A stretch of 64,000 bases of DNA from Mesorhizobium sp. (GTDB lineage Bacteria > Pseudomonadota > Alphaproteobacteria > Rhizobiales > Rhizobiaceae): assembly GCF_004963255.1 (NCBI RefSeq), contig NZ_SUGA01000032.1, positions 286 through 64,285 of the forward strand. The letters are read 5' to 3'. Below, piece by piece: positions 1,663-23,502 of the stretch. The number at the start of each line of letters is the position of its first letter. The stretch's first letter is position 1. The translations under genes were made by a program, and so were the position numbers. The notes beneath the pieces are model-generated. The model was not told the origin of the DNA. It worked only from the letters and a program-made list of their open reading frames with translations, and ran no database searches.

Positions 1663-2277
1663 TCACCCGCCTTTGACGTTTATCCGCGTCCCTGGAGGCA
1701 AACCCCTCGCTTTCGCGATGAGCTGAGCCGTAATGTGCCAATAAACTTCCAGATCTGTCAGTTCCAGATTTGCACTATCGTCTTTGCCGCCCAGGAAGAG
1801 CGGCACCTTGTAGCCGATGCATTGGTCGTAGGCAGGTTCGGCGCCACCATTCCCGCGCCACGTCGCGTAAAAATTCGAGGCCAAGGCGGCATCCTGGTAC
1901 TCATCCAATTCGATTTCATGAAAAGTGCGGATATTGGCCGGAATCTGAAGCGCCTCGCCGGTCCCTGGCTCGAACATCACGACACCAGGCTCCCCATCCT
2001 CGGTTCGTTTGGTGTCAATGGCGAATGTCCTGCCCAACCAATCGTATCCAAAACAGGTAATGCGCCCGGCGAATGCAGGGAAGCCCACGACTATTCTGCT
2101 GCTCCACGCGGCCAAATCCTGGGCACGGACGATGCGGTAAAGGCCGTGATTGAACGACACGCCACTGAAACTGGAAAGCAGCTCATTCAGGCTTGGCACA
2201 CCAGTGTCGATGCTCACAGAATCAGGCTTGCGGCCTGCGTCCGGAGAAAAGCTTTGTCGAAACTTTGGAAACATCAC
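1663..2277 (-). CDS. Tdi1-like (DUF1851) nuclease immunity protein
   Basis: FGYDWLGRTFA and CIGYKVPLFLGGKDDSANLELTDLEVYW motifs; start overlaps the toxin stop (2274-2277). Confidence 0.8.
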   Translation of the reverse strand: MMFPKFRQSFSPDAGRKPDSVSIDTGVPSLNELLSSFSGVSFNHGLYRIVRAQDLAAWSSRIVVGFPAFAGRITCFGYDWLGRTFAIDTKRTEDGEPGVVMFEPGTGEALQIPANIRTFHEIELDEYQDAALASNFYATWRGNGGAEPAYDQCIGYKVPLFLGGKDDSANLELTDLEVYWHITAQLIAKARGLPPGTRINVKGG

Positions 2278-4955
2278 CGATCTCCGATCGTTACCTTGCC
2301 AATTCTCGTCCCGTGAGGCAGATGCTTTATCCGATGATATATCTGGGGACCCAAGCTACGGTTCACGCTTGAATCCAGCGGAGCCATGTTATGCGTCGCC
2401 TCCGCACCTCCCAATTGCAAATCGTGTACATGATCCACGTCGTGGCCGATAGGCACTTCATTGCCTTCTGCTTTGTACCTGGCACTGGCCGACGTCGGAG
2501 CACGAACCGACGGAGTGACTATCTTCTCAACCGCGTTTAGAGCCGCGACCTTTAGATCTGCCGCAAGTCGTTGTGCCGCTGTCCAATGCGGCATGTAAAA
2601 CAGATGTAAGTCGGGACGATCGGAGCCGTTGGTTGCGCCTTCAGAACCAATCGAGGCCTCGCCCGCGTCCCGTGGGATGGCGGAATTCTCGTTCGTTCTA
2701 GGATCGGCCAGATAGGGCGATGCCCCGTCTATTTTAACATCCGTGCCGAAAGACGACTTTGCATCGGCGGGCCGGTCGGCAATTCTCGCCACCACCCGCC
2801 GACCAATCGCGCCGATCCCCTCGGCGAGCGCATTTGCGCCAGTGCCCAGGATCGCTCCAGCGCCCATTTCGCGCACGATGTCCCGGCCGTTGAGCGCAGC
2901 ATCGACGCCGCCGAACACGGCCCCGTCGGCAGCCGCGGTGGTGCTTCTCGCCAGGAAGCCGGGGAAACCTTCAAGGGTTTCAGCTCCCAGCCTGCCCGTG
3001 AAGGTAAGGCCGGCTTTCTGAAAGCCTTGGCCGGTGAGGAAAGCGCCGAGCAGGTTTGCGCCTATGGCAGCCGAGCCGGCACGATCCTCGGCGTCTTCGG
3101 TTTCGGCTTGTTCGGCTGCCCGCAGTTCGGCGTAGCTCTTGTCCGAGAAGATCGCATTCAAGCCGGCGGCGATCGTGTCCGCCTGACCGAAAGTCGCGCC
3201 GTTGGCCATGAGCCTGACAGTGTCGTTCGCCGCCACAAATGGCTTTTGCCACCATGAGCCGGCATCGAACCGCACGCGCGCCGGATGCGCAGCCATCTCG
3301 ATCAGATTTGCCTGCAGCGCTTTTCCCTGGGCTTCCAACTCCGCGGGAGTGATCTTTGGATCGTCCGACGCCTTTTGGCGCAGGCGTGCCAAAGCGGACT
3401 GGAAAACCTGTCCGGCGAAGGCGAAGCGCGTCTCCGGGTCACGCAGAGCCTTGAGTTTGTCACTCAGCTCGATGATGCGCGGCTGCAGCGGCACGCTGTC
3501 ATCGACATATCTTGCGCCAAGGTCGTCCGAGAACTCCTGCGGGACAGCCAAAACCGTGCTGAAACCCAACCGCAGCTGGGCAGCTCTCGCCCACACAACG
3601 GCCGCTTGTAATTCCTCCGGCGTTTTGACCTTGCTCCAGTCTGGAGCATCGCCGCGAAACACCCCACTGGCGTACGCGACTGGATCGGCGGCGCGGGCGG
3701 CCATGATCAACTGAGCGGCGCCGGCCTTGACTTCGTAGCGTTTGCGCGCTTCCAGCGAGCCGCCGGGTCCAGGCCTGCAGTGTAGGAGCTCGGCACTGAT
3801 CGCCTGGTTCGACGCCGCATGCATGTCGGAGTAGGCTTTGCCGATGCCGGTGTTGACCCGGAATAGTTTGAATCGTTCTGGGCCCAGGTCGGCGCCGTAG
3901 ACCTGGACGAAGTCCTGAGCGGTTGGTTCTTCCTCAGGATATTTGCCGGTGGCCGCGATGACGGACGGCGCGCTCTGCTCGGCAAGCATGACCCGCGCAT
4001 TCGCGCCGATCATCTGGACCGCGGTGGCGTTGTTGGCCTGAGTTTTCAGCGCGGCAATGTCGCCGGGTTTCAGATAGGTGATGGCATCGAGAGGTATGGC
4101 TGTGTCGCTGTCCGGCGACGGGCGTTCGCCGAACGCTTGCGCCACCATCTCGTCCGGCGTTTTTTGGCCGGTTGCCGCAGCTTTTTCATCCCGAGCCACA
4201 GCACCAAGCTGCGCCCTCACCGTCTCGCCCATGCCATCGCTCGCCACCGGGCCGGCGCTGAGCAGCTCGGCGGCGCGGCGCGGGTCCAGCGCGATCAGCG
4301 CTTGCAGGCGCTCTTTCGCCGTACGGGCGAGCCAGTCGGCTTCGGCCAGCGCCTTGGCTCGCGGGTCAAGGTCCATCTTGGCGATGAGATCGAGGCCGGC
4401 CTGGCGGGAGGCGTCGAAGGCGGTGGTGTCGTTCGGGTCGCTCTGCGCGATGTTGCTGAGCACGGCGGTGTGAACCTCCGCCGCCTGATCCTGCTCATAT
4501 TGCTTGCGCCGCTGATTTTGCTGCGCCGCCATGCGCCGACCGCCTACGGCGCGAAGCGCCTCCTTGCGCGCGGCAAGACCGGCGCGCAGCTCGGGCGGCA
4601 GCTGTTTCAGGAAATTGCCGAACAGCGCGTCGAACACGCCGGTCTTCACAACCTGGCCGGTGTACGGATCGACCTGGCCATACATGGCATCGTGCAGGCC
4701 GGCGCCGTCGGCGGGCGCGTTGGCCACCGCATCGGCCTCGGCCTGGGCGAGCTCGCCGTTCAGCCGGCGCGCGGCGATCTCGGTGTCGAAGGCCTCTTGC
4801 TGCGCCTTGCGCTGCTCGTAGCGCTCGGCGGCGGCTTGCCACCGGTCGCCGAACTGCTGCATCGCCTCGCCGACCGGCGAGGAGTCCGGATATTGCACCG
4901 CATTGCCGGTATCGAGCCGGCGCTCGCCGACGAACAGGGGGATGATGTGGACCAT
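2274..4955 (-). CDS. Polymorphic toxin 1: carrier D1 + D2 + Gly/Ala-rich hydrophobic segment + HNH-like nuclease tip (893 aa)
   Basis: Start MVHIIPLF at 4955 with AGGAAA RBS matches the paralog starting at 14565. C-terminus DVDHVHDLQLGG...NMAPLDSSVNRSLG is a beta-beta-alpha-metal nuclease-like motif. Followed directly by a Tdi1-like gene. Confidence 0.8.
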   Translation of the reverse strand: MVHIIPLFVGERRLDTGNAVQYPDSSPVGEAMQQFGDRWQAAAERYEQRKAQQEAFDTEIAARRLNGELAQAEADAVANAPADGAGLHDAMYGQVDPYTGQVVKTGVFDALFGNFLKQLPPELRAGLAARKEALRAVGGRRMAAQQNQRRKQYEQDQAAEVHTAVLSNIAQSDPNDTTAFDASRQAGLDLIAKMDLDPRAKALAEADWLARTAKERLQALIALDPRRAAELLSAGPVASDGMGETVRAQLGAVARDEKAAATGQKTPDEMVAQAFGERPSPDSDTAIPLDAITYLKPGDIAALKTQANNATAVQMIGANARVMLAEQSAPSVIAATGKYPEEEPTAQDFVQVYGADLGPERFKLFRVNTGIGKAYSDMHAASNQAISAELLHCRPGPGGSLEARKRYEVKAGAAQLIMAARAADPVAYASGVFRGDAPDWSKVKTPEELQAAVVWARAAQLRLGFSTVLAVPQEFSDDLGARYVDDSVPLQPRIIELSDKLKALRDPETRFAFAGQVFQSALARLRQKASDDPKITPAELEAQGKALQANLIEMAAHPARVRFDAGSWWQKPFVAANDTVRLMANGATFGQADTIAAGLNAIFSDKSYAELRAAEQAETEDAEDRAGSAAIGANLLGAFLTGQGFQKAGLTFTGRLGAETLEGFPGFLARSTTAAADGAVFGGVDAALNGRDIVREMGAGAILGTGANALAEGIGAIGRRVVARIADRPADAKSSFGTDVKIDGASPYLADPRTNENSAIPRDAGEASIGSEGATNGSDRPDLHLFYMPHWTAAQRLAADLKVAALNAVEKIVTPSVRAPTSASARYKAEGNEVPIGHDVDHVHDLQLGGAEATHNMAPLDSSVNRSLGPQIYHRIKHLPHGTRIGKVTIGDR

Positions 4956-5099
4956 TGGGCTGTTTCCTGGCCGGCGGTTTTGGGGGATGCGCGCAGCGGC
5001 GGGCCGCCAGAGGGTGGCGGCCAGTTCGGCGGTGCGGATGGTGAAGGTTCGGCGGGGGGCGCGGATGGCGAAAGGAGTGCGGCGAGAGCGCCTGCGTCC

Positions 5100-5316
5100 C
5101 CTTCTCCCCTTGTGGGAGAAGGTGGCCGCGAAGCGGCCGGATGAGGGGTGCTCCAGCTTGGCGGCCACTCATCCCCTTGTGAGGCGGGAGCCAAGTTTGG
5201 CGACGCCTCGTTTCTTCCAGCACCCCTCATCCGTCTCGGCGCTGGCGCGCCGATCCACCGCCCGGGGGCGAGCCACGGGCCTCGCCCCGTCCTTCAGACC
5301 CCACAGGGGGAGAAGG
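5100..5316. repeat. REP/RIME-like palindromic intergenic repeat (mosaic copy)
   Basis: Arms cttctccccttgtgggagaaggtggccgcgaagcggccggatgagggg and cccctcatccgtctcggcgc match the copies at 28531 and 51442. Confidence 0.8.
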
Positions 5317-5323
5317 AGAGGCG

Positions 5324-5647
5324 TTATCTCTCCTCGGCGCGCGCCGCTTTTTCCAGCGCCGCGAGGTCGGCGTCTTCCAGCGTCAGGAACCCCATGATGT
5401 GCTGCACGACTTCGGCGCGGGCATTGCTCAGCGCGCTGTGCAGCTCGAAGCCGTCGGGCGTCTTCGTTCGGGCCAGCCAGTCGCCGTAGGAGGGGCGGCG
5501 GTAGTAGCCTGTCGTGGCGGTGAGGTCGGCCAGCACAAGCTCGCCATCCTCGCCGGAAAAGACGCGGCGATAGGCCTTGGTCAGCGCCTCGCGCGCGGCG
5601 AGCGGGCCGCCGGCGTCGGAGGGACGGGCGAAGCGTTTGCGGCTCAT
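5324..5647 (-). CDS. Bbp19-like phage protein
   Basis: AYRRVFSGEDGELVLADL...ARAEVVQHIMGFL pattern; coupled to the portal stop, the usual position in BPP-1-like podophages. Confidence 0.65.
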   Translation of the reverse strand: MSRKRFARPSDAGGPLAAREALTKAYRRVFSGEDGELVLADLTATTGYYRRPSYGDWLARTKTPDGFELHSALSNARAEVVQHIMGFLTLEDADLAALEKAARAEER

Positions 5648-7482
5648 GCGGCACCATTGGCGGCGCCGCCCACGGGGCCGCCCTGGGAGTCAGGCACGGC
5701 GCCCTGCCCGCCGGGCATCGCGCCTTGCGTCGCGCCGGCCGAACCGGCAGCGCCGCCGCCTGCCCCGCCTTGGGCGCCCTGCATCATCGCCTGAAGGCTG
5801 TCGAGCAGGCCGCTGTCTCGCGCCTGCACGGCGGCCGGCACCGCGTCCTTGGCCACCTTGCCGGCGGTGGCGATCGCCGCCATGCCGGCCTGCGCCTGCT
5901 GTGCCTGGGCGCGCGCGCCGCGCATCCCTTCCACCTCGTCCTTGCGCCGGAAAATGCGCTGCGGGCTGCGGCCGGCGCTCTGCACGACGCGGATCGCCTC
6001 GTCGCCGTCGATATTGTCCATGATGCCGGGATCGAACTGCGCCATCTGCATGGCGGTGGTCACCACCTGGATGGTGTCGCGGGCCTCGGCCGAGCGGCGC
6101 AGCACGTCGAGCGGGCCGGTGAAGGTCGGCCGCACCGCCTTGCCGGCGAGGCTTTCCGGCGGGCGGAAGCGGCTGTCCTGGTCGTAGAGGCCTTTGTCCT
6201 CGAGGATCGACAGCTCGCGATCGAGATTGGCGGCAAAGCCGGCCTGGATGATCGAGCCGGAGGGACCGAGCAGCGCGCCCTTCTCCTCCTGGCGGATCAG
6301 CGCCTCGGTCGCGGTCATCTGCGGGTTCTGCACCAGCGTCTGGAAAAGGTTGACGAACATCATGTCGCGGATCTCCTCCGCCCGGCTCGCCGCATAGTCG
6401 AAGGCATAGCTCGGGTTCTGGCCGGTGGCGATCGGCTGGATCAGCGGCCGGCCATTGTCGTCGATCAGGCCAGGATAATTCTCGCCGGGATTGAGCACCG
6501 GCACATAATCGAGCCTGGCCTTGGAGGCCCTCGGCGGATCGGTGATCTGCTGCAGCGCGCGCAAGCCGGAGCGGCGCACGGCGTTCTCCTCGCGCACCGT
6601 GGTCAGCGCCTCGATGGCCGGCGAGATGCCGTAGGCGTCGCCCTCGTAGCGGCGCCAGTTGAAGGTCGAGACCGGGAAGGTGCGGAAGCCGGACTCGCGC
6701 ACGATCTCCTCCTCGTCCTCAATGACGTGGTAAGAGGCGAAGGCCTGGTCGAGATACTGGTAGAAACCGCCCTTGCGGTACATGCGGCGCTCGTCGCGCG
6801 GCTGCACGCATTGGATCAGCGAGATCTTCTCCTCGCATTTGGCCGGGTCGTCGACCAGCGCCTTGATGCGCGCCGGCAGCTTTTCATAGCCGAGCAATTG
6901 CGCCGCCTGGCGCGCCGTGCGCTCGTAGCGGCGGTGGAAAATGTCGACCTGGCCCCAGCGGTTGCGCGACAGATAGCCCTCGACCACGGGGATCGAGGCG
7001 TAGCGGATCAGCGTGCCGCCGAACCCTTCCTCGGCATAGAGATAGGCCGGGCCGTAGCGGACGACGTTGCGCAGACAGGCCTGCGTCGCCGGCACGAAGT
7101 TGGAGTTGGCGGAATAGCGCAGCGCGAACAGGAAATCGCGCAAGGCCTCGGCCCATTCCTTCTCCTCGTCGGTTTCCTCGTCGTTCATCTCGGCCGTGGT
7201 CAGCCCATGCCATTTTTCGGACTGCGGGATGATCAGGCTTTCCAGACCAGCCGCAAGACGGTTGGCGGCGCTGTTGATGGTGTTGGCGTAGACGCGCGAA
7301 CCGCGGCGCTCCTGCCGCTCGGCCTGGCTGTCCGAGCGGCTGGTGCGGCGGCCCGACCAGATGTCGGGCGCATCCGGATCGCAGAACTCCGCCACCGCCT
7401 CCCAGACGGGCTCGTAAGTGGCGCGTTCGGTCTCGAGTTCGGCCTGTCGCGACAGGATATCGCGGGCGCGGGAGTCGGTCAT
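5644..7482 (-). CDS. Phage portal (head-to-tail connector, T7/BPP-1-like)
   Basis: 612 aa intact ORF with W...GYGISPAIEAL, MTATEALIRQEEKGALLGP and FTGPL patterns of head-to-tail connectors; Gly/Ala/Gln-rich tail; host-like GC. Confidence 0.85.
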   Translation of the reverse strand: MTDSRARDILSRQAELETERATYEPVWEAVAEFCDPDAPDIWSGRRTSRSDSQAERQERRGSRVYANTINSAANRLAAGLESLIIPQSEKWHGLTTAEMNDEETDEEKEWAEALRDFLFALRYSANSNFVPATQACLRNVVRYGPAYLYAEEGFGGTLIRYASIPVVEGYLSRNRWGQVDIFHRRYERTARQAAQLLGYEKLPARIKALVDDPAKCEEKISLIQCVQPRDERRMYRKGGFYQYLDQAFASYHVIEDEEEIVRESGFRTFPVSTFNWRRYEGDAYGISPAIEALTTVREENAVRRSGLRALQQITDPPRASKARLDYVPVLNPGENYPGLIDDNGRPLIQPIATGQNPSYAFDYAASRAEEIRDMMFVNLFQTLVQNPQMTATEALIRQEEKGALLGPSGSIIQAGFAANLDRELSILEDKGLYDQDSRFRPPESLAGKAVRPTFTGPLDVLRRSAEARDTIQVVTTAMQMAQFDPGIMDNIDGDEAIRVVQSAGRSPQRIFRRKDEVEGMRGARAQAQQAQAGMAAIATAGKVAKDAVPAAVQARDSGLLDSLQAMMQGAQGGAGGGAAGSAGATQGAMPGGQGAVPDSQGGPVGGAANGAA

Positions 7483-7655
7483 GTTGTGCCTTTCACGAGG
7501 GCCATGGGACACTGGTGGATGCATATCGGTCGCGTGCACCGCAAAAGGTTCTTGTGCGACGCAACAATCAATGCGTAGATGGGTTTGGGTAACGGCGGTG
7601 GGGTCACGATGGCCGGAGAGCGGATCTGAGACCCGAGACGACCCACTTCGACGCC

Positions 7656-8779: not shown

Positions 8780-9940
8780 CTACCCGACGGTACTTGGCTC
8801 AAGCGCTGGCTTCTTGCGTGCAAACCGGCGCAACACCACGCGTCCGAGTTGCTGCCCAGGCATCTCGATGAGCCTGTAGGTCACGAAGGACAGAAGACAA
8901 ACCACCGGCAGCACGACCGCCAGCACGATGGCGAAGCGCAGCGGCGCGCCGAGGCCGTCGCCATAACGGGTAATCACGAAGGCCGCGACGGGCTGCAGCA
9001 CCAGAAGATGGATCAGATAGATGCTGTAGGACAGTTCGCCGAGCACATGAAAGATGCCTCCGCCCAATGCGATGGCGACTTTTCGCGCCGCGGCGCCCGC
9101 CGCGCCGGGCAGCATCCGATAGAGGACGAGGGCAAAGAACCCAAGCACAAGCGCTTCGCGTATCAGGAACTTCGAAAGGCCGTGGCCGTCGCCGAAGGGG
9201 ATCGCCGCGAACGCCATGGCCAGGGCCAGATGCACCAGGGGCCGCGGCTGATCCTTGCCCAGGACGCCCGCCAGAAGCATGCCGCACAAGAAAACCTGGA
9301 TCTTCAGCGGCAGGAAGGACGGCATCGGGAAATGGACCGACATCGACTTCAGGGCCACCACCGCCAGGGCGCCGAGCGCCACAACGACTAGCGCGCTCCC
9401 GACCCAGCCGAAACGGCGCACCAGAAGCATGAGCGCCGGGAAGACCGCGTAAAACTGCATTTCCAGCCCGAGGCTCCAGTCGGGCAGCGGGGTCCGGTAG
9501 GCGAAGTTCGGGGAGAGGCCGAACAGGAAGGTCAGGTGGGCGACAATGTTCTTCAGGCCGCTGTCGAGGTACCGCTCAGGCGCCTGCGGCGCGCGGCCCA
9601 CGAATGCGTCGATGACTGTTCGCGACTCGTAAACATACGGGCCGAGCGCCAGTGCGAAGAACAGCATGGCGTAGAACAGCGGCGCGATGCGGAAATAGCG
9701 CCGCGTCCAGAATTTGAGCCAGGTTTCAGGCCTTTGCCAGGGCTCCTTGTCCTGGCGCAGTTGATAGTGGAACACCATCAGGAAGCCGGAAAGCATGATG
9801 AAGAGATCGACGCCGAGTGCCGGGTCGCCAAGCACCGGGAGATGCCAGCCGGTCAGGAGCAGGCAGTGGCCGACCAGCACCCACAATGCGGCGGCGGCGC
9901 GAAGGCCATCCAGGCATTCGATGCGCGATGACTCGGTCAT
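8780..9940 (-). CDS. Acyltransferase-3 (OafA-like) membrane protein
   Basis: LDGLRAAAA, GVDLFIMLSGF, WSLGLEMQFY and GELSYSIYLIH motifs; convergent with the previous gene. Confidence 0.9.
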   Translation of the reverse strand: MTESSRIECLDGLRAAAALWVLVGHCLLLTGWHLPVLGDPALGVDLFIMLSGFLMVFHYQLRQDKEPWQRPETWLKFWTRRYFRIAPLFYAMLFFALALGPYVYESRTVIDAFVGRAPQAPERYLDSGLKNIVAHLTFLFGLSPNFAYRTPLPDWSLGLEMQFYAVFPALMLLVRRFGWVGSALVVVALGALAVVALKSMSVHFPMPSFLPLKIQVFLCGMLLAGVLGKDQPRPLVHLALAMAFAAIPFGDGHGLSKFLIREALVLGFFALVLYRMLPGAAGAAARKVAIALGGGIFHVLGELSYSIYLIHLLVLQPVAAFVITRYGDGLGAPLRFAIVLAVVLPVVCLLSFVTYRLIEMPGQQLGRVVLRRFARKKPALEPSTVG

Positions 9941-10130
9941 GCTCTCTCCATGCTGCAATGCAGCATGACCAGGGGAGTCTCAATGTCAACCCGGTTTCGG
10001 CACTCCCCTCCTCCGCTCGCGGCAAGGTTGGCCTCAGTCCGCCCGTTTTTTCACCAGCCGCGCATGCCGCCGCCAGTACCACCAGTCCAGCACGCGCCGA
10101 CGGAAGCTGCGTTTCATCGCGGTCATGGCG

Positions 10131-11872: not shown

Positions 11873-11881
11873 CTTGTTTCC

Positions 11882-12167: not shown

Positions 12168-12298
12168 ATCGCCCTCCCCAGATTGAATCGCCAAACGCTA
12201 CACGCTATGGGTGCATAGCCTTAATGTTTGGCAATGAAGATGTCGACTGGCTCGGGGCGCCGATGCCGTTTTCGCGAATGTCGCCGGGGGAGAACACC

Positions 12299-12556
12299 AT
12301 GAAAGCACTCGTCCTTGCGCTTGGCTTGATGTTGCCCGCGCCGCTTGCCGCGGCCGAAGAGCCGATCAAATGGACATTTTCCCGCCACGGGGGAACCACG
12401 GTCGAGATCCCCGTCTTCATAGCCGACGGCAATACCAGGTTGCTTAAGGGAGGCGGAAAGGTCGGCTTAATTTTTGACTCGAAAGAGTATGGTGTCGAGT
12501 TTTCTCAATACAAAGTAATTGATGGGACCAACAAGCGCCCGATCGACTATGTCTAC
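12299..12556 (+). pseudogene. Truncated paralog of periplasmic protein 16810-17343
   Basis: MKALVLALGL...AEEPIKW...GG..VEIP matches the 16810 gene; homology stops at about 12556 where a minus-strand toxin remnant begins. Confidence 0.65.
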
Positions 12557-12830
12557 GCAGCGCCTGTTCCACCCTGTCATAGAGCGGCGCGAGCTCGGCA
12601 GACTGGTCGCTGGCGCCGGCATTCTCGCCTGTGCCTTCGGTTTGGTCCTCGGCGTGATCGAGGGCGATGCCGCTGCCAGCGTTGCGCTCCATTGTCCTGA
12701 CCTCTTGTTGCTTGAAAATGTTCGCCGGCCTGGCAAGACCTTGCCTCGCCTGACGATCGCGCCCGGCGGAGGCGCCTGGGGTCCTGCGCGATCAGCGCTT
12801 CCAGGCACGCATTCGCGGCGCCGGAGCGTC
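12557..12830 (-). pseudogene. Remnant of a toxin carrier gene (D1 end + D2 start)
   Basis: MERNAGSGIALDHAEDQTEGTGENAGASDQSAELAPLYDRVEQAL closely matches the start of the 19185 gene; upstream, another frame gives LEALIAQDPRR, matching the D1 end of both full toxins. Confidence 0.65.
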
Positions 12831-12889
12831 AGGCGGACTCGATATGGGATTTGCGATGAGGACCCGGGCCCTCTGCCTTCTGTTCGCCA

Positions 12890-13084
12890 TCAGGCTGGCG
12901 TCAGTCGGATAATTACAAACACCATATACAAAGACATAAATCCGGGAACACTGAACGCGGCTGCGCCAAAAAGAACAAGGGCTCGCCGGAGCGGCGTAAG
13001 CTGTTGCGACTTGACGCCCTTCGCCAACAGGAACATGGCGAATGCAAAACTGGGAACTCCCAGTAAGAATATTAAAACATCCAC
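12890..13084 (-). CDS. 64-aa two-TM protein, candidate PLA2 immunity (copy 2)
   Basis: GTG at 13084 with GGAG RBS; FLLGVPSFAFAMFL...FSVPGF aligns with the neighbour's YFLGSISFVFAIFL...LSLPGF. Confidence 0.55.
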   Translation of the reverse strand: MDVLIFLLGVPSFAFAMFLLAKGVKSQQLTPLRRALVLFGAAAFSVPGFMSLYMVFVIIRLTPA

Positions 13085-13122
13085 CTTAACATCTCCGACT
13101 TCAGCAGTATATATAAGTCCAT

Positions 13123-13314
13123 TCAATGGAAAATCCAGACAATTCTGTATACTGCAAAATCCCAAATAACGAAGAAGCCCGGCAAACTCAGAAAAGCCGA
13201 TATATAAATAGTGTATCGACCAATTTTCGGCCAGCGATCACTGCAGATTACGCCAACAAATGCCAAAAATATTGCGAAGACAAATGAGATAGAGCCAAGA
13301 AAGTAAAACCCCAT
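13123..13314 (-). CDS. 63-aa two-TM protein, candidate PLA2 immunity (copy 1)
   Basis: Two hydrophobic helices, low GC, immediately downstream of the PLA2-like toxin. Confidence 0.6.
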   Translation of the reverse strand: MGFYFLGSISFVFAIFLAFVGVICSDRWPKIGRYTIYISAFLSLPGFFVIWDFAVYRIVWIFH

Positions 13315-13389
13315 CGACTACCCCTTAACGCCGGCTCCAAGTCAAAACCGGAGGCAAAATGAAGGCTCTGATCTCATTCCGGATCGCGA

Positions 13390-14565
13390 CTACCAATTGC
13401 CGAATGACATGCCGCTTTCAAACCGCGCCCTTCCAACAGCCGCTTGCACGTCGTCGTAAGCCCTTTGCGCTTCATCTCGGCCAGAAATCTCCGCCGCGCT
13501 CAACGGATGGAGCGCCAAATCGCCGGCAATCTTAATCCGGAAAGCCCTGAGCGCCAGTCGAGCGTATTTGGATGCGTCCCTGCGCTCCTCGTCGGTCTTC
13601 AAGGCTGGATCCGTGGCGTAATCCTCATTGTCGAGATATGACTTCAATGATGCTGCAAGTTTCCTATCCGCTAAAATTGTATCGCCCGGCGTTTTCGCGT
13701 CATGGTAGTCCGCGTCATGCTGTTTGTAAAACCCGTTCTGAATATCAAAGGGCGGCACGTCAAAACCGCCACCCCATGTCCCGCCGGTCCAGCCACGACC
13801 GCCGTAGTTGCCATAGGTTGGCATATTTCGGTTGATCCTATCGGACAGGCTTAAAGGCTGGTCATCGCGGGTCACCCCTGCGGCGCCCAGCATTTCCAAC
13901 GCGCGCTTGGGATCCCGCGCGATCAGCGCCTCGATCCGCGTCGTCGCCGCGCGATCGCGCCAAGCGGCTTCGGCCTGCAGCCGGCTTTCAGGATCGAGGT
14001 TCATCTTGCCGATGAGGTCGATGCCGGCCTGACGGGCGGCCTCGAAGGCGGCGTGGTCGTCGGGGTCGCTCTTCGCGATGCTGTCGAGCTCTTCGGCCTG
14101 GGCCGCCGCGAGATGGTCCTGCTCATACTGGGCGCGACGCTGCAGCTGCTGCATCGCCATGCGCACCGAGCCTGCCTCCCGCAGGGCCGGCTTGCGGCTG
14201 GCGAGGCCGGCGCGCAGTTCGGGCGGCGCCTGCTTCAGGAAATTGTCGAACAGCGTGTCGAACCGGCCTTCGAGCAAGACGCGCCCGCTATGCGGATCGA
14301 CCTCGCCATACGTGGCGTGGTGCAGGCCCTCGCCGTCGGCCGGCGCGTTGGCCGCGACATCGGCCTCTGCGCTCGCGATCTCGCCATCCAGCCTGTGCGC
14401 CGCGATCTCGGTGTCGAAGGCCTGCTGCCGCGCCATGCGCCGTTCGTAGTGAGCGGCAACCTCCTGCCAGTAGGGATCGAGCGGGCCGGCCGGCGCAGCG
14501 CCGGGCGCCGCATCGCGGGGATCGGGGCGGCGCTGATCGGTGAAGAGCGGAATGATGTGGACCAT
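13390..14565 (-). CDS. Polymorphic toxin 2: carrier D1 + phospholipase A2-like tip (391 aa)
   Basis: N-terminal ~230 aa collinear with toxin 1; tip has YGNYGGRGWTGG (Ca-loop-like) and HDADY (catalytic HD-like); GC drops at the tip. Confidence 0.75.
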   Translation of the reverse strand: MVHIIPLFTDQRRPDPRDAAPGAAPAGPLDPYWQEVAAHYERRMARQQAFDTEIAAHRLDGEIASAEADVAANAPADGEGLHHATYGEVDPHSGRVLLEGRFDTLFDNFLKQAPPELRAGLASRKPALREAGSVRMAMQQLQRRAQYEQDHLAAAQAEELDSIAKSDPDDHAAFEAARQAGIDLIGKMNLDPESRLQAEAAWRDRAATTRIEALIARDPKRALEMLGAAGVTRDDQPLSLSDRINRNMPTYGNYGGRGWTGGTWGGGFDVPPFDIQNGFYKQHDADYHDAKTPGDTILADRKLAASLKSYLDNEDYATDPALKTDEERRDASKYARLALRAFRIKIAGDLALHPLSAAEISGRDEAQRAYDDVQAAVGRARFESGMSFGNW

Positions 14566-14823
14566 GGGGTGCTTCCAGGCGCGCGGAGGCGCCGCCGGCG
14601 GCATGGCCAGCGCGCGCCGCGCCGGCTGCCGCTACGGGGCTGTCGGATCGGGGATTTCAGGGAGGCGGGAAGGCCGGCGTTGCGGAATAAAGGCGCCGGC
14701 GGCGCAAGCTTCAAACTACGGTGACAGTGCGTGATTTTCCGCTCGATCGAACGGAAACGTTGCGGACTTCAACAAGTGGAATCGCGTTCAGAAAATGAAT
14801 GCGTCCTCACCGCAATTCCGATG

Positions 14824-15252
14824 CTATTCCTCATCGTAGGGTTCGACTATCGCAACGAAAATGCCCAACGAATCAAGCAGATCAAAAGCGCGTTCTGAAA
14901 TGACGAGGCGGAAGGGCACTGCGATCCCGAAGTCGTCCTGACCCGCCTTTCCATGCACTTTCAACCAAACGAAACGCGGCAGCACCACGCCGGGTTGATC
15001 TTCCTGAAATTCTTCCGAGGTCGTCACCTCGGCGTCGGCAAACGTTGCGCCTGAAAAGCCCATCTTCTCCAACGCGCGCTGGGCTTCTTCAGTAACAAGG
15101 AAACAGGGAAACGTCGCAACAATCACGTCCCCGAACCATGCGTTCACCTCGTAGTGGAGCTTGGTTACGATCGGTGGATGAACGCTCGAGTCGAGAACCG
15201 TGCCTTTGCCAACCCCGCCAGCCGGGTGCGGCCGTATTTTAAAGTATTGCAT
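14824..15252 (-). CDS. Candidate immunity protein, paralog 3 of a tandem trio
   Basis: Shares DSSVHPPIV..LHY, FPCFLVTE, FVWLKV.G.AG.DDFG and ISER motifs with the other two copies. Confidence 0.65.
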   Translation of the reverse strand: MQYFKIRPHPAGGVGKGTVLDSSVHPPIVTKLHYEVNAWFGDVIVATFPCFLVTEEAQRALEKMGFSGATFADAEVTTSEEFQEDQPGVVLPRFVWLKVHGKAGQDDFGIAVPFRLVISERAFDLLDSLGIFVAIVEPYDEE

Positions 15253-15285
15253 CAGAGGAAGACCGATCAACCTGCAAGCTGAACC

Positions 15286-15717
15286 TCAGAAAGGTTCGAT
15301 TAAAGCATGGGAGATGCCCAATGGCCTCAGGGCATCGAGCACACGCTCGGAGACAACATGCCGGTGGTCCTCGGCTAGCCCGAAATCGTCGTGGCCCGCC
15401 CTCCCATCCACTTTCAGCCAAACGAATGGCGGCAACTCCACGTCCGGCTGCATCTCCTCGAACAATTCGGACGTGGTTACTTTGACCTTGTCGGAGGTCG
15501 CTCCCGAAAAGCCAGCCGTAAGAAATTTCGCTTTTAGGTATTCAGTGACGAGACAGCACGGGAACGACGCAACCATCACATCATCCAGCCACCCGTCGAA
15601 TTCATAGTGCAGACGTGTCACGATAGGAGGATGGACGCTTGTGTCCATAATGGCATCATCGCCAAGCCCGCCCGAGACTTCCGGTTCCAAATAGAAATAT
15701 TTCACTGGCCCTCCCAT
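15286..15717 (-). CDS. Candidate immunity protein, paralog 2 of a tandem trio
   Basis: Same motifs; likely GTG start overlaps the stop of an upstream gene remnant (GTGA). Confidence 0.65.
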   Translation of the reverse strand: MGGPVKYFYLEPEVSGGLGDDAIMDTSVHPPIVTRLHYEFDGWLDDVMVASFPCCLVTEYLKAKFLTAGFSGATSDKVKVTTSELFEEMQPDVELPPFVWLKVDGRAGHDDFGLAEDHRHVVSERVLDALRPLGISHALIEPF

Positions 15718-15909
15718 TCCGGAGCGAAATCACCGACGTCCGAAATCGCCTCGTCAACGGCTCCACACCTCAGTGGTGCCGCAGCATCCTATGCAATCTA
15801 TAATTGCAAGCCAGCCCCCCCCTGTTTAGGCGCCTACGGTCGTGGGGGGCGCGGGAACTCCTCAAAGCCGCGCGATCTTGTAGCCATCCTCACATTTGAA
15901 ACGCCCAAC

Positions 15910-16338
15910 CTACCGATCATCGTAAGGCTCGACTATCGCGAACGGAATGCCCAGCGATTCAAGCAGATCAAGAACGCGTTCCGAGATGATGAGGTGGAAG
16001 GGTACCGCGATCCCGAAGTCGTCTTGACCCGCTCTCCCATTCACTTTCAACCAAACGAAATGTGGCAGGTCCAGGCCGGGTTGATCTTCTTGACATTCTT
16101 CCGAGGTTGTCACCTCGGCGTCTGCGAACGTCGCGCCTGAAAAGCCCATCTTCTGCAGCGCGCGCTGGGTCTCTTCAGTGACGAGGAAGCAAGGGAACGT
16201 CGTAACAATCACATCCCCGAACCAGCCCTCTACCACATAGTGTAGCTTGCTCACGATTGGCGGATGGACACTCGAATCGAAAACTGTGCCTTTGCCGACC
16301 CCACCAGCCACGTTCGGCCATATTTTAAAAAATCGCAT
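15910..16338 (-). CDS. Candidate immunity protein, paralog 1 of a tandem trio
   Basis: Highly similar to 14824-15252 at both DNA and protein level. Confidence 0.65.
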   Translation of the reverse strand: MRFFKIWPNVAGGVGKGTVFDSSVHPPIVSKLHYVVEGWFGDVIVTTFPCFLVTEETQRALQKMGFSGATFADAEVTTSEECQEDQPGLDLPHFVWLKVNGRAGQDDFGIAVPFHLIISERVLDLLESLGIPFAIVEPYDDR

Positions 16339-16352
16339 CAGAGAAAGACCGA

Positions 16353-16680
16353 TCAACCGGCGAAGTTGTTGTCGACGAACATCTCAGCAAATTGCTGAGG
16401 CGTGAGCGTCACCTTGTTGTCGTGGGCGATTTTGAGATTCTTCCTCCACATATCGCGGATTGCATCCGGCATCGTGTCGGGCATGTGGAGAGCCTTGGCG
16501 ATAGCATCTTCCCATCGTCCATTGCCGCCATAGATGGCCTGCAGCTTGGGCGCCATGGCGTTCAGCGTTGCGGCGGAATCTTCGGTCCAAGGCTCTGCTG
16601 CATAAATTGTGTCGTCCTCGTCAAAATCTGACAACCGTCCACCGTCCAACGATATCCAACAGCTTTGTTATTTTTGCCAC
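16353..16680 (-). pseudogene. Deletion chimera of the 11882-12167 and 11558-11872 homologs
   Basis: LSDFDEDDTIYAAEPWTEDSAA is fused in frame to LNAMAPKLQAIYGG...NNFAG; a 7-bp tandem duplication (ccgtcca x2, ~16635-16648) frameshifts the 5' end. Confidence 0.7.
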
Positions 16681-16809
16681 GCCAGCCCCCAAGATTGAAT
16701 CGCCAACCGCCACACGCTATGGGTGCATAGCCTTAATGTTTGGCGGTGAAGATGTCGATTGGCTCGGGGCGCCGATGTCGTTTTCCGAATGTCGCCGGGG
16801 GATAACACC

Positions 16810-17343
16810 ATGAAAGCACTTGTTTTTGCACTTGGCCTTTTAGCAGCGTCATCGCCCTTTGCGATGGCAGAGGAGCCGATCAAATGGATCGTTTCCACGA
16901 CTGGCGGAAGCCAGATCGAGATTCCCTCGTTCTTTGCCGACGGGAAGGTCGAACCTCTGTCTTCCTTCTCCGAAGGACTTACGTTTACACCCAAAAATTA
17001 TCCGGATACCCATTTTCGTCAATATGAAGGAAGCGGAACGATAACTCCATTCGGGTATATCGCGCGCATGCTCGTCGACGATACTGAAAACTATGAAGAC
17101 CAAACGAAAGATTATTACGAACGTAACCACCCTGGCGATAAAGTTACTTATACTTCCGATAATGCGTCCATCGGCGCGGTTTCCGGTACGCGCGCATACG
17201 GTGCTCTCATCTACTATGGCATGTGTCGGAAGCACGCCACCGATATCATAACCTGTTTCGATATGACCTGGAGCAAGAAAGATAAAGCGATATTCGAACC
17301 GATCGCTCAGCGTATCGCTCGGTCGTTCGGTAAAGATAGATGA
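16810..17343 (+). CDS. Periplasmic protein with signal peptide, candidate amidase immunity
   Basis: MKALVFALGLLAASSPFAMA signal peptide; C-terminal Cys pair; convergent with the amidase tip. Confidence 0.6.
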   Translation: MKALVFALGLLAASSPFAMAEEPIKWIVSTTGGSQIEIPSFFADGKVEPLSSFSEGLTFTPKNYPDTHFRQYEGSGTITPFGYIARMLVDDTENYEDQTKDYYERNHPGDKVTYTSDNASIGAVSGTRAYGALIYYGMCRKHATDIITCFDMTWSKKDKAIFEPIAQRIARSFGKDR

Positions 17344-17395
17344 TCGTCATAGATTCGCAGATAGACGCCCCCAGGGACGACGATAAAAATCTGCT

Positions 17396-17815
17396 CTACC
17401 TTTCAATAATGTAGTAATAAGCGCCACTCTCAAGGCCCTGACCTGCACCCTCCCAGGGCCGGAAGGTTATGTTTGCGTTCCGACGCTTCCATTGATCCAA
17501 AATGAAGATCCCCGATTCATTTTGACCGAGGTAAATTCCGGTGTGACTAAATCCGCTTACCCCCCCAGATTGGCCCTTTGGTCCATAATGAATTTTGCCC
17601 TTTCCGTCACCCCAATCACCGTTGAACGTGGCGATGGGAGTCCCGGGTAAAATCTTACCATTTCCTTGTACTCTCTCTCCCTTTTTCCATGTTGAGGCAG
17701 GAATACCGGCCATACCTCCCACTTCCTTTGTCAACGCGACGCATTGGCCATTGCCGAAACTTTTTCCCAGAATTTTTGTGTAGGATTTAGCCCTCGCCTG
17801 GACGTCTTCCGGCAA
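17396..17815 (-). CDS. Tae/BPSL0067-like NlpC/P60 peptidoglycan amidase domain, out of frame with its upstream carrier
   Basis: GQCVALTK (Cys), PIATF, HTGIYLGQ (His) and ILDQW motifs; frame is open upstream to about 17955. Confidence 0.75.
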   Translation of the reverse strand: MPEDVQARAKSYTKILGKSFGNGQCVALTKEVGGMAGIPASTWKKGERVQGNGKILPGTPIATFNGDWGDGKGKIHYGPKGQSGGVSGFSHTGIYLGQNESGIFILDQWKRRNANITFRPWEGAGQGLESGAYYYIIER

Positions 17816-19185
17816 AACTGAAATATTTGTGGTGCTGTTCCCAAACCATCCTTCAAGAGATTTTTCGACTGCGGTAGCTTTTTGCTGAAATCGATAGAAG
17901 GAGCCTTCGGACTCCCTGGCGGCGGCTTCATCTGTTCTGATGGGACCTCCTTCAAGTCAACCCGCAAATTGGAATTGTCGTCCGCGGATTGGGACGCCGG
18001 GTCAGATGTTCCAGAAGGAACGCCCGGACGCTCTGGCGGCGGATCTATCTGCTCCGGCAGCACCTGCGTCAGTTCAACCGGCGCATCAAAATTGTCATTG
18101 GCAAGCCCGGACGCGGATACCAGGGAACCACTGTCGGCAGCGACCGGAGAGTCACCAGCCGCAAGGGTCTCGGAGGATTGCGCAGGCGCCCGCGTCGAAG
18201 GCGACGCATCCTGGCTCTCAAAGGGTGCCTTTGAGGGCAACCCAAAGCGCTTGTCGAAATCATCCTGCCCAAGCGGGGTTACCTTCTGCGTCTGCCCGCC
18301 AAGCAATCCAGCCTCGGCAAACTGCTGCTTGACCGCCGCCTTGACGACCGGATCCGTCGTTCCGGAAAGCAGGCCGTTCATCCCGGCCCACATGTCTTGC
18401 GGCGGCATTCCGCCGAGCTCTTTCAGCACCGATCGCGGCACGGGCTCAGCGTTCTCGATGCCGAGATAGCGCTGCGTGGCGATGGTGAGGGCCAGCGCGT
18501 TCCGGACCGCGGCGGGGTCGCGCCAGCCCTGGGCCGCCGCGGCGCGCCAGGCCTCGTTCGCCTGCGGAAACGCCTTGACGGCCTCGCCGGCAGGATCGTT
18601 CTGCCTGGCTTCCAGCACGTGTTGGGCGGCAGCGGCGGTTATCCGGTAGCGCGACTGGCCCTCCGGCGAATTCGCCGCGCCGACGGCTGCGTCCAGCAGC
18701 TGGCTGTTTATGTCCCGGGCCGGCATGACACGCATGTCGAAGGCCTGCTTGCCCGTCCCCACGCTCTGGTCGAACTTCGCCAGTTGCCGGCGGCCTTCCT
18801 CGACGCCGAAGACATAGGCGAAGTCCTCGGGCTTGGGCATCACGCCGGCATAGCTGCCGGTGTCCGCAAAAGCCTTCGGGGCGTTCTGAAAGGCCAGAGA
18901 GATATTGGCGCGCGCGCCGACCAGCTGGGAGACATTGGCGGCGCGCGCACGCCGGGCAAGAGCGCCGGCGGAGCCCGGCGTGAGATCGGCAAGCACGGCG
19001 GCGAGCGGCCGATCCTTGTCCGTCAGGGCATCGACCGGCCGGTCCTTCGCCAGCGCCTGTTTCACCCTGTCATAGAGCGGCGCGAGATCGGCGGACTGGT
19101 CGCTGGCGCCGGCATTCTCGCCGGTGCCTTCGGTCTGGTCGTCGGCGCTATCCAGGAGCGTTCCGTCGCCGATCTTACGATCCAT
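17731..19185 (-). CDS. Polymorphic toxin 3 carrier (D2 + Pro-rich linker), frameshifted before the amidase tip
   Basis: LADLTPGSAGAL...GSYAGVMPKPEDFAYVFGVEEG aligns with toxin 1 ITYLKPGDIAAL...GKYPEEEPTAQDFVQVYGADLG. Confidence 0.7.
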   Translation of the reverse strand: MDRKIGDGTLLDSADDQTEGTGENAGASDQSADLAPLYDRVKQALAKDRPVDALTDKDRPLAAVLADLTPGSAGALARRARAANVSQLVGARANISLAFQNAPKAFADTGSYAGVMPKPEDFAYVFGVEEGRRQLAKFDQSVGTGKQAFDMRVMPARDINSQLLDAAVGAANSPEGQSRYRITAAAAQHVLEARQNDPAGEAVKAFPQANEAWRAAAAQGWRDPAAVRNALALTIATQRYLGIENAEPVPRSVLKELGGMPPQDMWAGMNGLLSGTTDPVVKAAVKQQFAEAGLLGGQTQKVTPLGQDDFDKRFGLPSKAPFESQDASPSTRAPAQSSETLAAGDSPVAADSGSLVSASGLANDNFDAPVELTQVLPEQIDPPPERPGVPSGTSDPASQSADDNSNLRVDLKEVPSEQMKPPPGSPKAPSIDFSKKLPQSKNLLKDGLGTAPQIFQFCRKTSRRGLNPTQKFWEKVSAMANASR

Positions 19186-23491: not shown

Positions 23492-23502
23492 GGCAACTCC
23501 AG

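What the first reader, a model, noticed from the sequence alone, without database searches (positions are those of the whole stretch)
2274..19185. Mix-and-match carrier architecture: D1-D2-HNH, D1-PLA2, D2-amidase
Seen: toxin 1 (4955-2274) has D1 (MVHIIPLF...ALIALDPRRA) and D2 (LKPGDIAAL...QDFVQVYG). Toxin 2 (14565-13390) has only D1, switching to its tip right after EALIARDPKRALEML. Toxin 3 (19185-17396) has only D2, with its own start. A remnant at 12557-12830 holds a D1 end followed by the same D2 start. Inference: two recombination breakpoints let tips swap onto either module, or D1-only and D2-only proteins load at different positions of one particle.
Basis: partly seen in the sequence, partly recalled or inferred. 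Interest (0 to 1): 0.8.

Follow-up and report, generated by a model that had tools for sequence, protein, structure and literature searches.

The report
Phage ejection-protein carriers of swappable toxins
Three genes in a broken-down Mesorhizobium prophage are copies of a podovirus internal (ejection) protein whose two helical modules, encoded fused or as separate genes, carry interchangeable nuclease, lipase-like and cell-wall-amidase tips with immunity genes, which would be a second phage-borne polymorphic toxin carrier besides MuF.

Summary
D1 is 57% identical between toxins 1 and 2 (E 1e-81). D2 is 30% identical over about 250 residues between toxins 1 and 3 (E 2e-19). Toxin 2 leaves D1 right after ...ALIARDPKRALEML.

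D1 and D2(+MID) are all-helical modules of a podovirus internal-virion (ejection) protein. In canonical phage relatives it is one gene after tail tubular B, with a peptidoglycan hydrolase between D1 and D2.

Mesorhizobium prophage-like elements hold it in up to three slots: terL–portal, after portal, and after the internal virion proteins. It occurs fused or split into D1 and D2 genes. At least 15 tip families are seen (HNH/WHH nucleases, Tae2-like amidase, glucosaminidase, SleB), with immunity genes (Tdi1-like, SUKH).

Identity drops sharply at the D1 end, which marks a recombination breakpoint. D1-tip fusion exists only for the PLA2-like tip.

The 'remnant' is the displaced D1 tail plus a truncated duplicate of the D2-amidase start. 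M. plurifarium has the intact contiguous form.

In this genome toxin 3 is frameshifted and the capsid and tail genes are deleted, so no particle can be made here.

Verdict: new variant of a known kind (phage-capsid polymorphic toxins). Delivery is inferred, not shown.

The parts
2274..4955 (-). Toxin 1 (slot B). Modules: D1 (4943-4254), D2 (4076-3387), MID (3362-2898), Gly/Ala-rich segment (2882-2628), HNH/NucB-like nuclease tip (2612-2277).
   Evidence: AF2 gives confident all-helical D1 and D2-MID. The tip resembles NucB and HNH folds. phrog_37988 matches the full length.
1663..2277 (-). Tdi1-like immunity gene. Its start overlaps the stop of toxin 1.
   Evidence: PF08906 T6SS_Tdi1_C, E 3.8e-9. 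The same gene follows the slot B and slot C toxins in L001, L002 and L005.
213..653 (-). SUKH-1 (SMI1/KNR4) immunity-type gene in the downstream cassette array.
   Evidence: PF09346, E 1.4e-13.
5324..5647 (-). Bbp19-family small phage protein between the portal gene and toxin 1.
   Evidence: PF25181 on the orthologs in L001 and L002. dN/dS 0.03.
5644..7539 (-). T7-type portal protein.
   Evidence: PF12236, E 4e-70. 97% aa identity to the G001 ortholog. dN/dS 0.06.
12558..12830 (-). Remnant. It holds the displaced D1 3' tail (about 12830-12706, with a 10-nt deletion) followed by a truncated duplicate of the D2-amidase gene start (12705-12558).
   Evidence: The same D1-tail relic sits just upstream of the intact D2-amidase gene in L001.
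12890..13314 (-). Two small ORFs after toxin 2. They are candidate membrane immunity proteins and part of the PLA2 cassette.
   Evidence: They are co-inherited with the PLA2 tip at 95-99% nt identity to L001. No Pfam match. Function is inferred.
13390..14565 (-). Toxin 2 (slot A). D1 (14553-13882) is fused to a PLA2-like tip (13863-13393).
   Evidence: The PLA2 reading rests only on the YGNYGGRG...HDADY motifs. No Pfam or PDB sequence match was found.
14824..17343 (.). Bank of small ORFs between toxins 3 and 2, with no family assignment. They are immunity-like by position.
   Evidence: No Pfam match. The region is partly syntenic with L001 11847-13643.
17396..19185 (-). Toxin 3 (slot A). It has its own leader (MDRKIGDG...), D2 (18987-18304), a Pro/Ser-rich linker and a Tae2/BPSL0067-type amidase (17815-17396). 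A 1-nt deletion at about 17857 breaks the frame.
19563..19999 (-). Duplicated terL 3' end directly upstream of toxin 3. It marks the rearrangement of slot A.
   Evidence: Window 19999-19571 and 23491-22743 both match L001 7320-7749.
22736..25031 (-). Split large terminase (N and C parts). It is the upstream border of slot A.
   Evidence: Terminase_6N/6C on the orthologs. terL-C dN/dS is 0.05-0.07.

Best explanation
The three genes are paralogs of one podovirus internal-virion (ejection) protein.

Ancestral form (shown by synteny in phage contigs): a single ~700-1000-aa gene after tail tubular B and a small internal virion protein. Its layout is an N-terminal helical module (D1), a peptidoglycan hydrolase, a second helical module (D2+MID), then a C-terminus.

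State in Mesorhizobium (shown): a prophage-like element found in about 38% of species holds this gene in up to three slots. Slot A lies between terL and portal, slot B after portal and Bbp19, and slot C at the ancestral place. The internal hydrolase has been lost. D1 and D2 are encoded either fused or as adjacent, overlapping genes. The C-termini have become polymorphic tips (HNH/WHH nucleases, Tae2-like amidase, glucosaminidase, SleB-type hydrolase, a PLA2-like domain), followed by immunity genes (Tdi1-like, SUKH) and orphan tip fragments.

How diversity arises (shown by identity breakpoints): recombination occurs at the conserved D1 end (...ALIAxDPxRA...) and at the carrier/tip junction. The D1-PLA2 fusion arose when a PLA2 + small-TM cassette replaced the tail of a bare D1 gene. 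The old tail was left as a relic in front of the D2-amidase gene.

Proposed mechanism (inferred): D1 and D2 act together as the capsid-core or ejectosome scaffold. This packages the tips in the head and ejects them into the envelope or cytoplasm of the cell the particle attacks. The immunity genes protect the producer and its kin.

State in this genome (shown): the system is defective. Slot A is rearranged and duplicated, toxin 3 is frameshifted, and about 16.7 kb of capsid, tail and internal-virion genes are deleted.
For: - Homology.
- Distant relatives carry SLT, lysozyme, M15 or VanY domains between the N-terminal module and D2.
- Canonical gene order is portal-Bbp19-protease-MCP-ttA-ttB-IVP-D1... 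in viral contigs L008, L047 and L051. IMG/VR Mesorhizobium-type elements show three slots, as does G001.
- BFVD fold matches (prob 1.0, E down to 2e-9) are to podovirus structural or internal virion proteins with lysozyme, SLT or GH108 domains, including phiVC8 and LIMElight.
- The D2-only class has its own conserved leader, which is found in no fused homolog, and varied tips.
- About 13 clusters of bare D1 genes exist.
- At least 15 tip clusters exist, some shared between carrier types.
- Breakpoints at the D1 end.
- The D1-tail relic is conserved in L001 and homologous to the natural D1|D2 junction of L002.
- Immunity families. Tae2 match E 1.5e-7.
- Purifying selection: portal and terL-C ω about 0.06, D1 and D2 ω 0.2-0.3.
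- Deletion of the structural genes.
Against: - No experiment or proteome shows D1 or D2 proteins in virions.
- No solved structure, including the T7 core proteins, matches the confident D2-MID model.
- The slot A and B copies are not at the internal-virion-protein position.
- Several copies in several genomes carry frameshifts (window toxin 3; G001 slot C D1), so part of the family may be decaying.
- Tips that are peptidoglycan hydrolases could simply be the virion's own wall-opening enzyme rather than toxins.
- The PLA2 assignment is by motif only.
- G001's element shows no tyrosine integrase and has a split terL, so even 'intact' elements may not be active phages.
Confidence: 0.65

Rival explanations
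1. First reader's second option. D1-only and D2-only proteins are independent carriers that dock at different sites of one particle, each delivering its own tip.
For: - D1-PLA2 and D2-amidase are separate genes, each with an enzymatic tip.
- The D2-only class has its own leader peptide.
Against: - D1 and D2 are fused in most homologs. Searches give 93-106 D1-D2 forms plus 45 longer forms.
- Fused and split states alternate in the same slot among close relatives (window and L001 fused, L002 split). This is the usual signature of two parts of one complex.
- Bare D1 genes have no cargo.
- No particle can be built in this genome.
Confidence: 0.12
2. The tips are infection-aid enzymes of the phage itself, not interbacterial toxins. 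They would open the wall, perturb the membrane and degrade host DNA. The 'immunity' genes would only protect the producing cell during late gene expression.
For: - Canonical relatives carry PG hydrolases in the same protein.
- Most D2-only tips are PG hydrolases: BPSL0067 ×6, glucosaminidase ×4, SleB ×1.
- In L001 the amidase gene has no co-directional downstream gene.
Against: - Nuclease tips are hyper-variable and have abrupt breakpoints.
- Dedicated immunity families typical of polymorphic toxin loci are present (Tdi1-like, SUKH), as are orphan tip fragments and extra immunity genes.
- Three to five paralogous copies per element are more than an entry function needs.
Confidence: 0.25
3. In this genome the slot A genes are inert debris of a decaying prophage. 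The architecture reflects accidental truncations and has no function.
For: - Toxin 3 is frameshifted.
- Slot A has duplicated terL 3' ends and a truncated D2 start.
- Capsid and tail genes are deleted.
Against: - The same D1-PLA2 (92% aa, 391 aa) and D2-amidase (595 aa, intact) genes are kept in other species.
- D1 and D2 have dN/dS of 0.2-0.3.
- The D2-only and bare-D1 classes are recurrent, each with conserved starts.
- So the architectures are evolved states even if this copy is dying.
Confidence: 0.3
4. They are effectors of a bacterial secretion system (T6SS or similar) that merely lie inside a prophage.
For: - The Tae2-like amidase and the Tdi1-like immunity protein are families first described with T6SS.
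Against: - No PAAR, VgrG, Hcp, MIX or Rhs domain was found in the toxins or their neighbours by Pfam.
- The carriers are homologous to phage structural proteins and always sit among terL, portal, capsid and tail genes.
Confidence: 0.03

Closest known systems
MuF polymorphic toxins of temperate phages (Zhang et al. 2012, PMC3482391; Jamet et al. 2017, PMC5576092; Bxa and Apk2, PMC11699363)
   Same: - A phage head-associated N-terminal carrier with variable C-terminal toxin domains.
- A small immunity gene directly downstream.
- A position next to the portal gene (slot B).
- Occurrence in prophages and prophage remnants.
   Different: - The carrier is not MuF. No PF04233 or PF06152 match was found, even at E<=10.
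- It is an all-helical two-module protein derived from a podovirus internal virion protein.
- There are up to three slots and 2-5 copies per element.
- The carrier can be split into two genes, each able to bear a tip.
Podovirus internal virion / ejection proteins with a peptidoglycan hydrolase (T7 gp15/gp16 position; phiKMV gp36-type; from my own knowledge of these phages)
   Same: - Same gene position in canonical relatives, after tail tubular B and a small internal virion protein.
- A PG-hydrolase domain in the same polypeptide.
- Fold-level matches to predicted structures of such proteins.
   Different: - No sequence or fold match to solved T7 core proteins.
- The Mesorhizobium copies have lost the internal hydrolase.
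- They have gained nuclease or lipase-like tips with immunity genes, and have been copied to new genomic slots.
Rhs / CdiA C-terminal displacement and orphan cassette arrays (Zhang et al. 2012, PMC3482391)
   Same: - A conserved motif at the end of the constant region acts as the recombination point.
- An incoming tip+immunity cassette displaces the old 3' end, which persists downstream as a relic.
- Orphan tips and extra immunity genes accumulate.
   Different: - The constant region is a phage structural protein.
- Displacement is seen at two levels: the D1 end and the carrier/tip junction.
Polyvalent proteins of phages and conjugative elements (Iyer et al. 2017, PMC5512222)
   Same: - Proteins predicted to be packaged and injected with the DNA.
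- Some database names call homologs 'Large polyvalent protein-associated domain'.
- One homolog ends in LPD3.
   Different: - Each protein here has one catalytic tip, not many disparate domains.
- Immunity genes and allelic tip replacement are hallmarks of polymorphic toxins, not of polyvalent proteins.

Membership tests
Polymorphic toxin system (sensu Zhang et al. 2012) | Conserved N-terminal trafficking/carrier region joined to hyper-variable C-terminal toxin domains | tested here: met
   - At least 15 C-terminal clusters occur on conserved D1/D2 carriers.
- Abrupt identity breakpoints are seen.
Polymorphic toxin system (sensu Zhang et al. 2012) | Cognate immunity gene immediately downstream | tested here: met
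   - A Tdi1_C-domain gene overlaps the toxin 1 stop.
- A SUKH-1 gene lies further downstream.
- A DUF7716 gene follows the WHH toxin in L002.
- For toxins 2 and 3 there are only unassigned small ORFs, so those cases are inconclusive.
Polymorphic toxin system (sensu Zhang et al. 2012) | Displaced or orphan tip fragments and cassettes near the main gene | tested here: met
   - D1-tail relic at 12830-12706.
- Orphan HNH-tip fragment at L001 21694-21786, 99% identical to window 2299-2388.
Polymorphic toxin system (sensu Zhang et al. 2012) | Toxicity of the tip and neutralisation by the immunity protein | not testable with these tools
   This needs expression assays.
MuF toxin family | MuF domain (PF04233 / PF06152 or MuF3/4) | tested here: not met
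   No Pfam match was found on the whole proteins or on the D1, D2 and MID pieces at E<=10. MuF3 and MuF4 profiles were not available.
MuF toxin family | Gene immediately downstream of the portal gene | tested here: met
   This holds for slot B only. The order is portal, Bbp19, toxin 1.
Podovirus internal virion (ejection) protein | Position after the tail tubular proteins and a small internal virion protein | tested here: met
   - Met for relatives L008, L047, L051, L090, L093 and L094, and for G001 slot C.
- The window's own copies sit in slots A and B.
Podovirus internal virion (ejection) protein | Fold similarity to known internal virion proteins | tested here: inconclusive
   - BFVD predicted structures of podovirus structural and internal virion proteins match (E to 2e-9, prob 1.0, low TM).
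- No match to solved structures.
Podovirus internal virion (ejection) protein | Physical presence in the virion and ejection into the host | not testable with these tools
   This needs particle proteomics.
T6SS effector | T6SS trafficking domain (PAAR, VgrG, MIX, Rhs) or linkage to T6SS genes | tested here: not met
   No such Pfam domain was found in the toxins or their neighbours. The context is phage structural genes.
Phospholipase A2 (toxin 2 tip) | Match to a PLA2 family model or structure, with the Ca-loop and HD dyad | tested here: inconclusive
   The motifs YGNYGGRG and HDADY are present. No Pfam match and no PDB sequence match was found.
Tae2 / BPSL0067 peptidoglycan amidase (toxin 3 tip) | Family model match with the catalytic Cys and His | tested here: met
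   - NF033857, E 8e-16.
- PDB 6WIN (Tae2), E 1.5e-7, with QCV and H aligned.
- The frame is broken upstream.

The most novel reading that the evidence does not exclude
The element is not a decaying prophage. It is a chromosomally fixed, integrase-less, podovirus-derived particle system that Mesorhizobium keeps as a contact-independent toxin-delivery device.

In this reading the ejection proteins are re-purposed as a multi-slot polymorphic toxin rack. The D1|D2 split allows two different cargoes per ejectosome, for example a wall-opening amidase plus a membrane or DNA toxin. This would be a capsid-based analogue of tailocins and eCIS.

Observations consistent with it:
- The same chromosomal site in three species.
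- A split but strongly constrained terL.
- No integrase in G001.
- Purifying selection on portal, terL-C and the carriers.
Probability: 0.15. Interest if true: 0.85.

Novelty: new variant of a known kind. Interest (0 to 1): 0.6.

Why it matters
The only described capsid-borne polymorphic toxins use the MuF domain, and their biological role is still unknown. This family would be a second, unrelated carrier with a clear origin. It derives from the ejection (internal virion) protein that podoviruses already send into the cell envelope, so a delivery route is built in.

The family offers natural experiments:
- fused versus split carriers;
- periplasmic versus cytoplasmic tips;
- three genomic slots;
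- intact versus deleted elements in sister species.

These make two questions directly testable in a non-pathogenic soil genus: whether phage particles deliver toxins, and who benefits.

It also gives names and boundaries to two unannotated domains (no Pfam entry) that occur in hundreds of phage proteins.

Tried and rejected
- Pfam and NCBIfam on the whole toxins and on D1, D2, MID and tip pieces gave no carrier family.
- PHROGs gave only families of unknown function and a weak 'head protein' match.
- megablast and tblastn against the phage collection gave no D1 or D2 match.
- A profile search of PDB sequences gave nothing for the carriers.
- Foldseek against PDB with the full model and with a confident D2-MID model (pLDDT 89) gave only generic helical repeats and no T7 core protein.
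- The PLA2 tip had no PDB or Pfam match, so it stays a motif-level call.
- The 'TM' label for 2882-2628 was rejected. The maximum Kyte-Doolittle 19-mer score is about 1.2, so this is a Gly/Ala-rich, weakly hydrophobic segment and not a classical TM helix.
- The search for related loci with the distant-relative alignment failed because no block was conserved enough. A single protein was used instead.
- Single-linkage clustering of whole tails lumped everything together. It was replaced by clustering of the last 140 aa.
- The T6SS-effector reading was rejected on context.
Full report
**Setting**

The window is almost the whole of a 64.6-kb contig of a 6.7-Mb genome. All close protein matches are from Mesorhizobium. 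From about 28,000 upward the window is ordinary chromosome: DoxX, tryptophan dioxygenase, AsnC, a histidine kinase and others.

Below that, all on the minus strand, lies the head end of a podovirus-like element, in this order:
- split large terminase (25031-22736);
- a low-GC insert;
- a duplicated terL 3' end (19999-19563);
- toxin 3;
- a bank of small ORFs;
- toxin 2;
- two small ORFs;
- the remnant;
- an acyltransferase moron;
- a T7-type portal (7539-5644; PF12236, E 4e-70);
- a Bbp19-family gene;
- toxin 1;
- a Tdi1-like gene;
- a SUKH gene.

This order rests.

**Check of the observation**

- BLASTP gives 57% identity over 246 residues between toxins 1 and 2 (E 1e-81).
- BLASTP gives 30% identity over 249 residues between toxins 1 and 3 (E 2e-19).
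- Toxins 2 and 3 share nothing.
- HMMs that I built from 241 homologs place D1, D2, a further conserved helical module (MID), a Gly/Ala-rich segment and the tip precisely.

Two corrections apply. D2 is about 230 aa, not about 60. Toxin 3 is broken by a single-base deletion at about 17857, relative to an intact 595-aa ortholog that is 91% identical in DNA.

**What the carrier is**

No Pfam or NCBIfam model matches D1 or D2.

An exhaustive phmmer search found 228 relatives. Beyond Mesorhizobium these are 700-1100-aa proteins. In them D1, or another N-terminal module, is followed by a peptidoglycan hydrolase (SLT, phage lysozyme, M15 peptidase or VanY) and then by D2.

In viral contigs the gene order is portal, Bbp19, protease/scaffold, major capsid protein, tail tubular A, tail tubular B, a small internal virion protein, then this gene (L008, L047, L051). 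That is the place of the internal-virion or ejection proteins in T7-like podoviruses (my own knowledge of T7 gene order).

AlphaFold models are confident and all-helical. D1 spans residues 36-236. D2-MID spans 285-640, and its separate model has pLDDT 89.

Foldseek against predicted viral structures returns podovirus structural and internal virion proteins, many with lysozyme, SLT or GH108 domains (E down to 2e-9). Against solved structures nothing matches the carrier. Only the tip matches, to NucB and HNH nucleases.

I therefore file the carrier as working like, and descended from, a podovirus ejection protein. A relation to the solved T7 core proteins is unproven.

**What happened in Mesorhizobium**

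Of 61 species genomes, 23 carry D1, usually as 2-3 copies within 10-25 kb. Loci from M. plurifarium (L001), Mesorhizobium sp. B2-8-5 (L002/L005, G001) and IMG/VR contigs (L087-L097) show the same element with three slots:
- slot A between terL and portal;
- slot B after portal and Bbp19;
- slot C at the ancestral place.

This rests.

The internal hydrolase is gone. The C-termini instead fall into at least 15 unrelated clusters among 91 homologs. They include several HNH-like nucleases, WHH/colicin-DNase, a BPSL0067/Tae2-like amidase, glucosaminidase, SleB-type hydrolase, DUF6973 and LPD3.

WHH and SleB tips occur on both D1-D2 and D2-only carriers.

Immunity-type genes follow. A Tdi1_C-domain gene follows the HNH toxins in slots B and C, DUF7716 follows WHH, and a SUKH gene lies further down. 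An orphan HNH-tip fragment in L001 is 99% identical to the window's tip.

These are the defining genomic features of polymorphic toxin loci (PMC3482391).

**Fused versus split carriers**

D1 and D2 are fused in most homologs, but split forms are regular.
- About 13 clusters are bare D1 genes of 225-314 aa. They end shortly after ...ALIAxDPxRA....
- A D2-only class begins with its own leader, MERNAGSG.../MDRKIGDG..., which occurs in no fused homolog.
- In L002 both slot A and slot B are split, with overlapping stop and start codons. In slot B, however, the D1 ORF runs on in-frame through the linker sequence that precedes D2 in the fused toxin 1, so that split looks like a recent frameshift in a fused gene rather than an established split.
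- In the window and L001, slot B is fused.

**Origin of D1-PLA2 and of the remnant**

In L001 the order is contiguous: D1-PLA2, a small TM ORF, a short D1-tail relic, then the intact D2-amidase gene.
- Window 14685-12558 matches that stretch at 92%.
- Window 19200-16811 matches the D2-amidase gene and its downstream region at 88%.

The relic aligns with the natural D1-end/D2-start junction of L002 and carries a 10-nt deletion.

Divergence between the window and L001 is dS 0.21 in D1 but 0.018 in the PLA2 tip. So a PLA2 + TM cassette replaced the tail of a bare D1 gene, recombining at the conserved D1 end, and the cassette has moved recently.

The same breakpoint is seen in slot B. Identity to L001 is 90-95% through D1 and collapses from about 4240.

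Only two protein clusters have a tip directly on D1, and both are PLA2-like.

In the window, slot A has been further rearranged:
- the terL 3' end is present twice;
- the D2 start is present twice;
- L001 segment 12743-13643 is present twice;
- L001 segment 13688-13817 is present twice.

This looks like partial tandem copies followed by deletions.

**State in this genome**

tblastn finds no major capsid protein, tail tubular A or B, internal virion proteins or slot C anywhere in the assembly, which is rated 100% complete. Contig C97 runs straight across the deletion junction, and about 16.7 kb is missing relative to G001. Together with the toxin 3 frameshift, this means the element here cannot make particles.

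Across species, the portal, Bbp19 and the C-terminal half of the split terminase show dN/dS of 0.03-0.07. D1 and D2 show 0.2-0.3. The genes have therefore been functional until recently.

**Mechanism, with its status**

Shown:
- homology and synteny of the carrier;
- the slot layout;
- fused and split states;
- tip polymorphism;
- the breakpoints;
- the immunity families;
- the defects in this copy.

Inferred:
- D1 and D2 form one scaffold that is packaged in the head and ejected on adsorption.
- Hydrolase tips act in the periplasm, and nuclease tips reach the cytoplasm.
- Immunity genes protect the producer and its kin.

Nothing here measures packaging, toxicity or delivery.

**Comparison and novelty**

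The nearest described system is the MuF family of phage polymorphic toxins (PMC5576092, PMC3482391, PMC11699363). It has the same logic and the same neighbourhood to the portal. The carrier here is not MuF by the available models. It has a different origin, occupies several slots and can be split in two.

A full-text search for 'internal virion protein' together with 'polymorphic toxin' returned no paper.

Some database names already call homologs 'large polyvalent protein-associated' (PMC5512222), so the family is not wholly unseen.

I rate it a new variant of a known kind, interest 0.6.

**Limits**

- No HHpred-type comparison with MuF3/4 or T7 core profiles was possible.
- The absence of an integrase was checked only for tyrosine recombinases in G001.

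Noticed in passing
window 22736-25031; L001 5778-7756; L002 1595-7665: The large terminase is split at the same point in three species. The inserts differ (about 0.5 to 4.6 kb). The C-terminal half is nevertheless under strong purifying selection (dN/dS 0.05-0.07). It is either a functional two-chain terminase with a cargo hot spot, or a very recent loss in each lineage.
   Followed up: partly
own genome contig C97 41528-42959 (outside the window): This is the deletion junction. About 16.7 kb is missing relative to Mesorhizobium sp. B2-8-5. The missing stretch holds the protease/scaffold, major capsid protein, tail tubular A and B, internal virion proteins, the slot C toxin, the tail fibre and the endolysin. 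Only the first 90 codons of the phrog_11997 gene remain.
   Followed up: yes
G001:C1 about 4841285-4884566 (L002, L005, L006): The about 43-kb 'intact' element has packaging, head, tail, fibre and endolysin genes but no tyrosine integrase inside or next to it. It sits at the same DoxX / Trp-dioxygenase / AsnC flank as in the window and in M. plurifarium. This hints at a vertically kept, GTA-like or tailocin-like element rather than a mobile prophage.
   Followed up: partly
window 1678-1842 (inside the Tdi1-like immunity gene); also L001 21442-21621, L002 20950-21117, L005 3959-4120: The HMM of the HNH tip weakly matches the C-terminal part of the Tdi1-like immunity proteins (E 1e-4 to 6e-6). 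The match covers tip positions about 50-106.
   Followed up: no
L001 21694-21786: An orphan HNH-tip fragment lies downstream of the slot B immunity gene in M. plurifarium. It is 99% identical in DNA to window 2299-2388, although the two slot B toxins are otherwise only 30-50% identical past D1.
   Followed up: partly
window 8780-9958 and 20300-22635: Moron-like cargo lies in slot A. It comprises an O-antigen acetyltransferase (PF01757, phrog_3333) and a low-GC insert flanked by direct repeats of the terL 3' end.
   Followed up: no
own genome, more than 20 places (e.g. C71 2620-2697, C73 88078-88143, window about 51430-51504): A ~25-residue peptide (residues 15-40 of the G001 protease/scaffold ORF as I called it) hits many contigs by tblastn at 75-95% identity. 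It is probably a dispersed short repeat that overlaps that ORF's 5' end.
   Followed up: no
toxin 1 residues 1-35 (window 4955-4851) and homologs: The N-terminus MVHIIPL..RRLDTG..VQYP is nearly invariant (I5, P6, R12 invariant in 66 sequences). AlphaFold predicts it to be disordered. It is a candidate capsid-targeting or processing signal.
   Followed up: no
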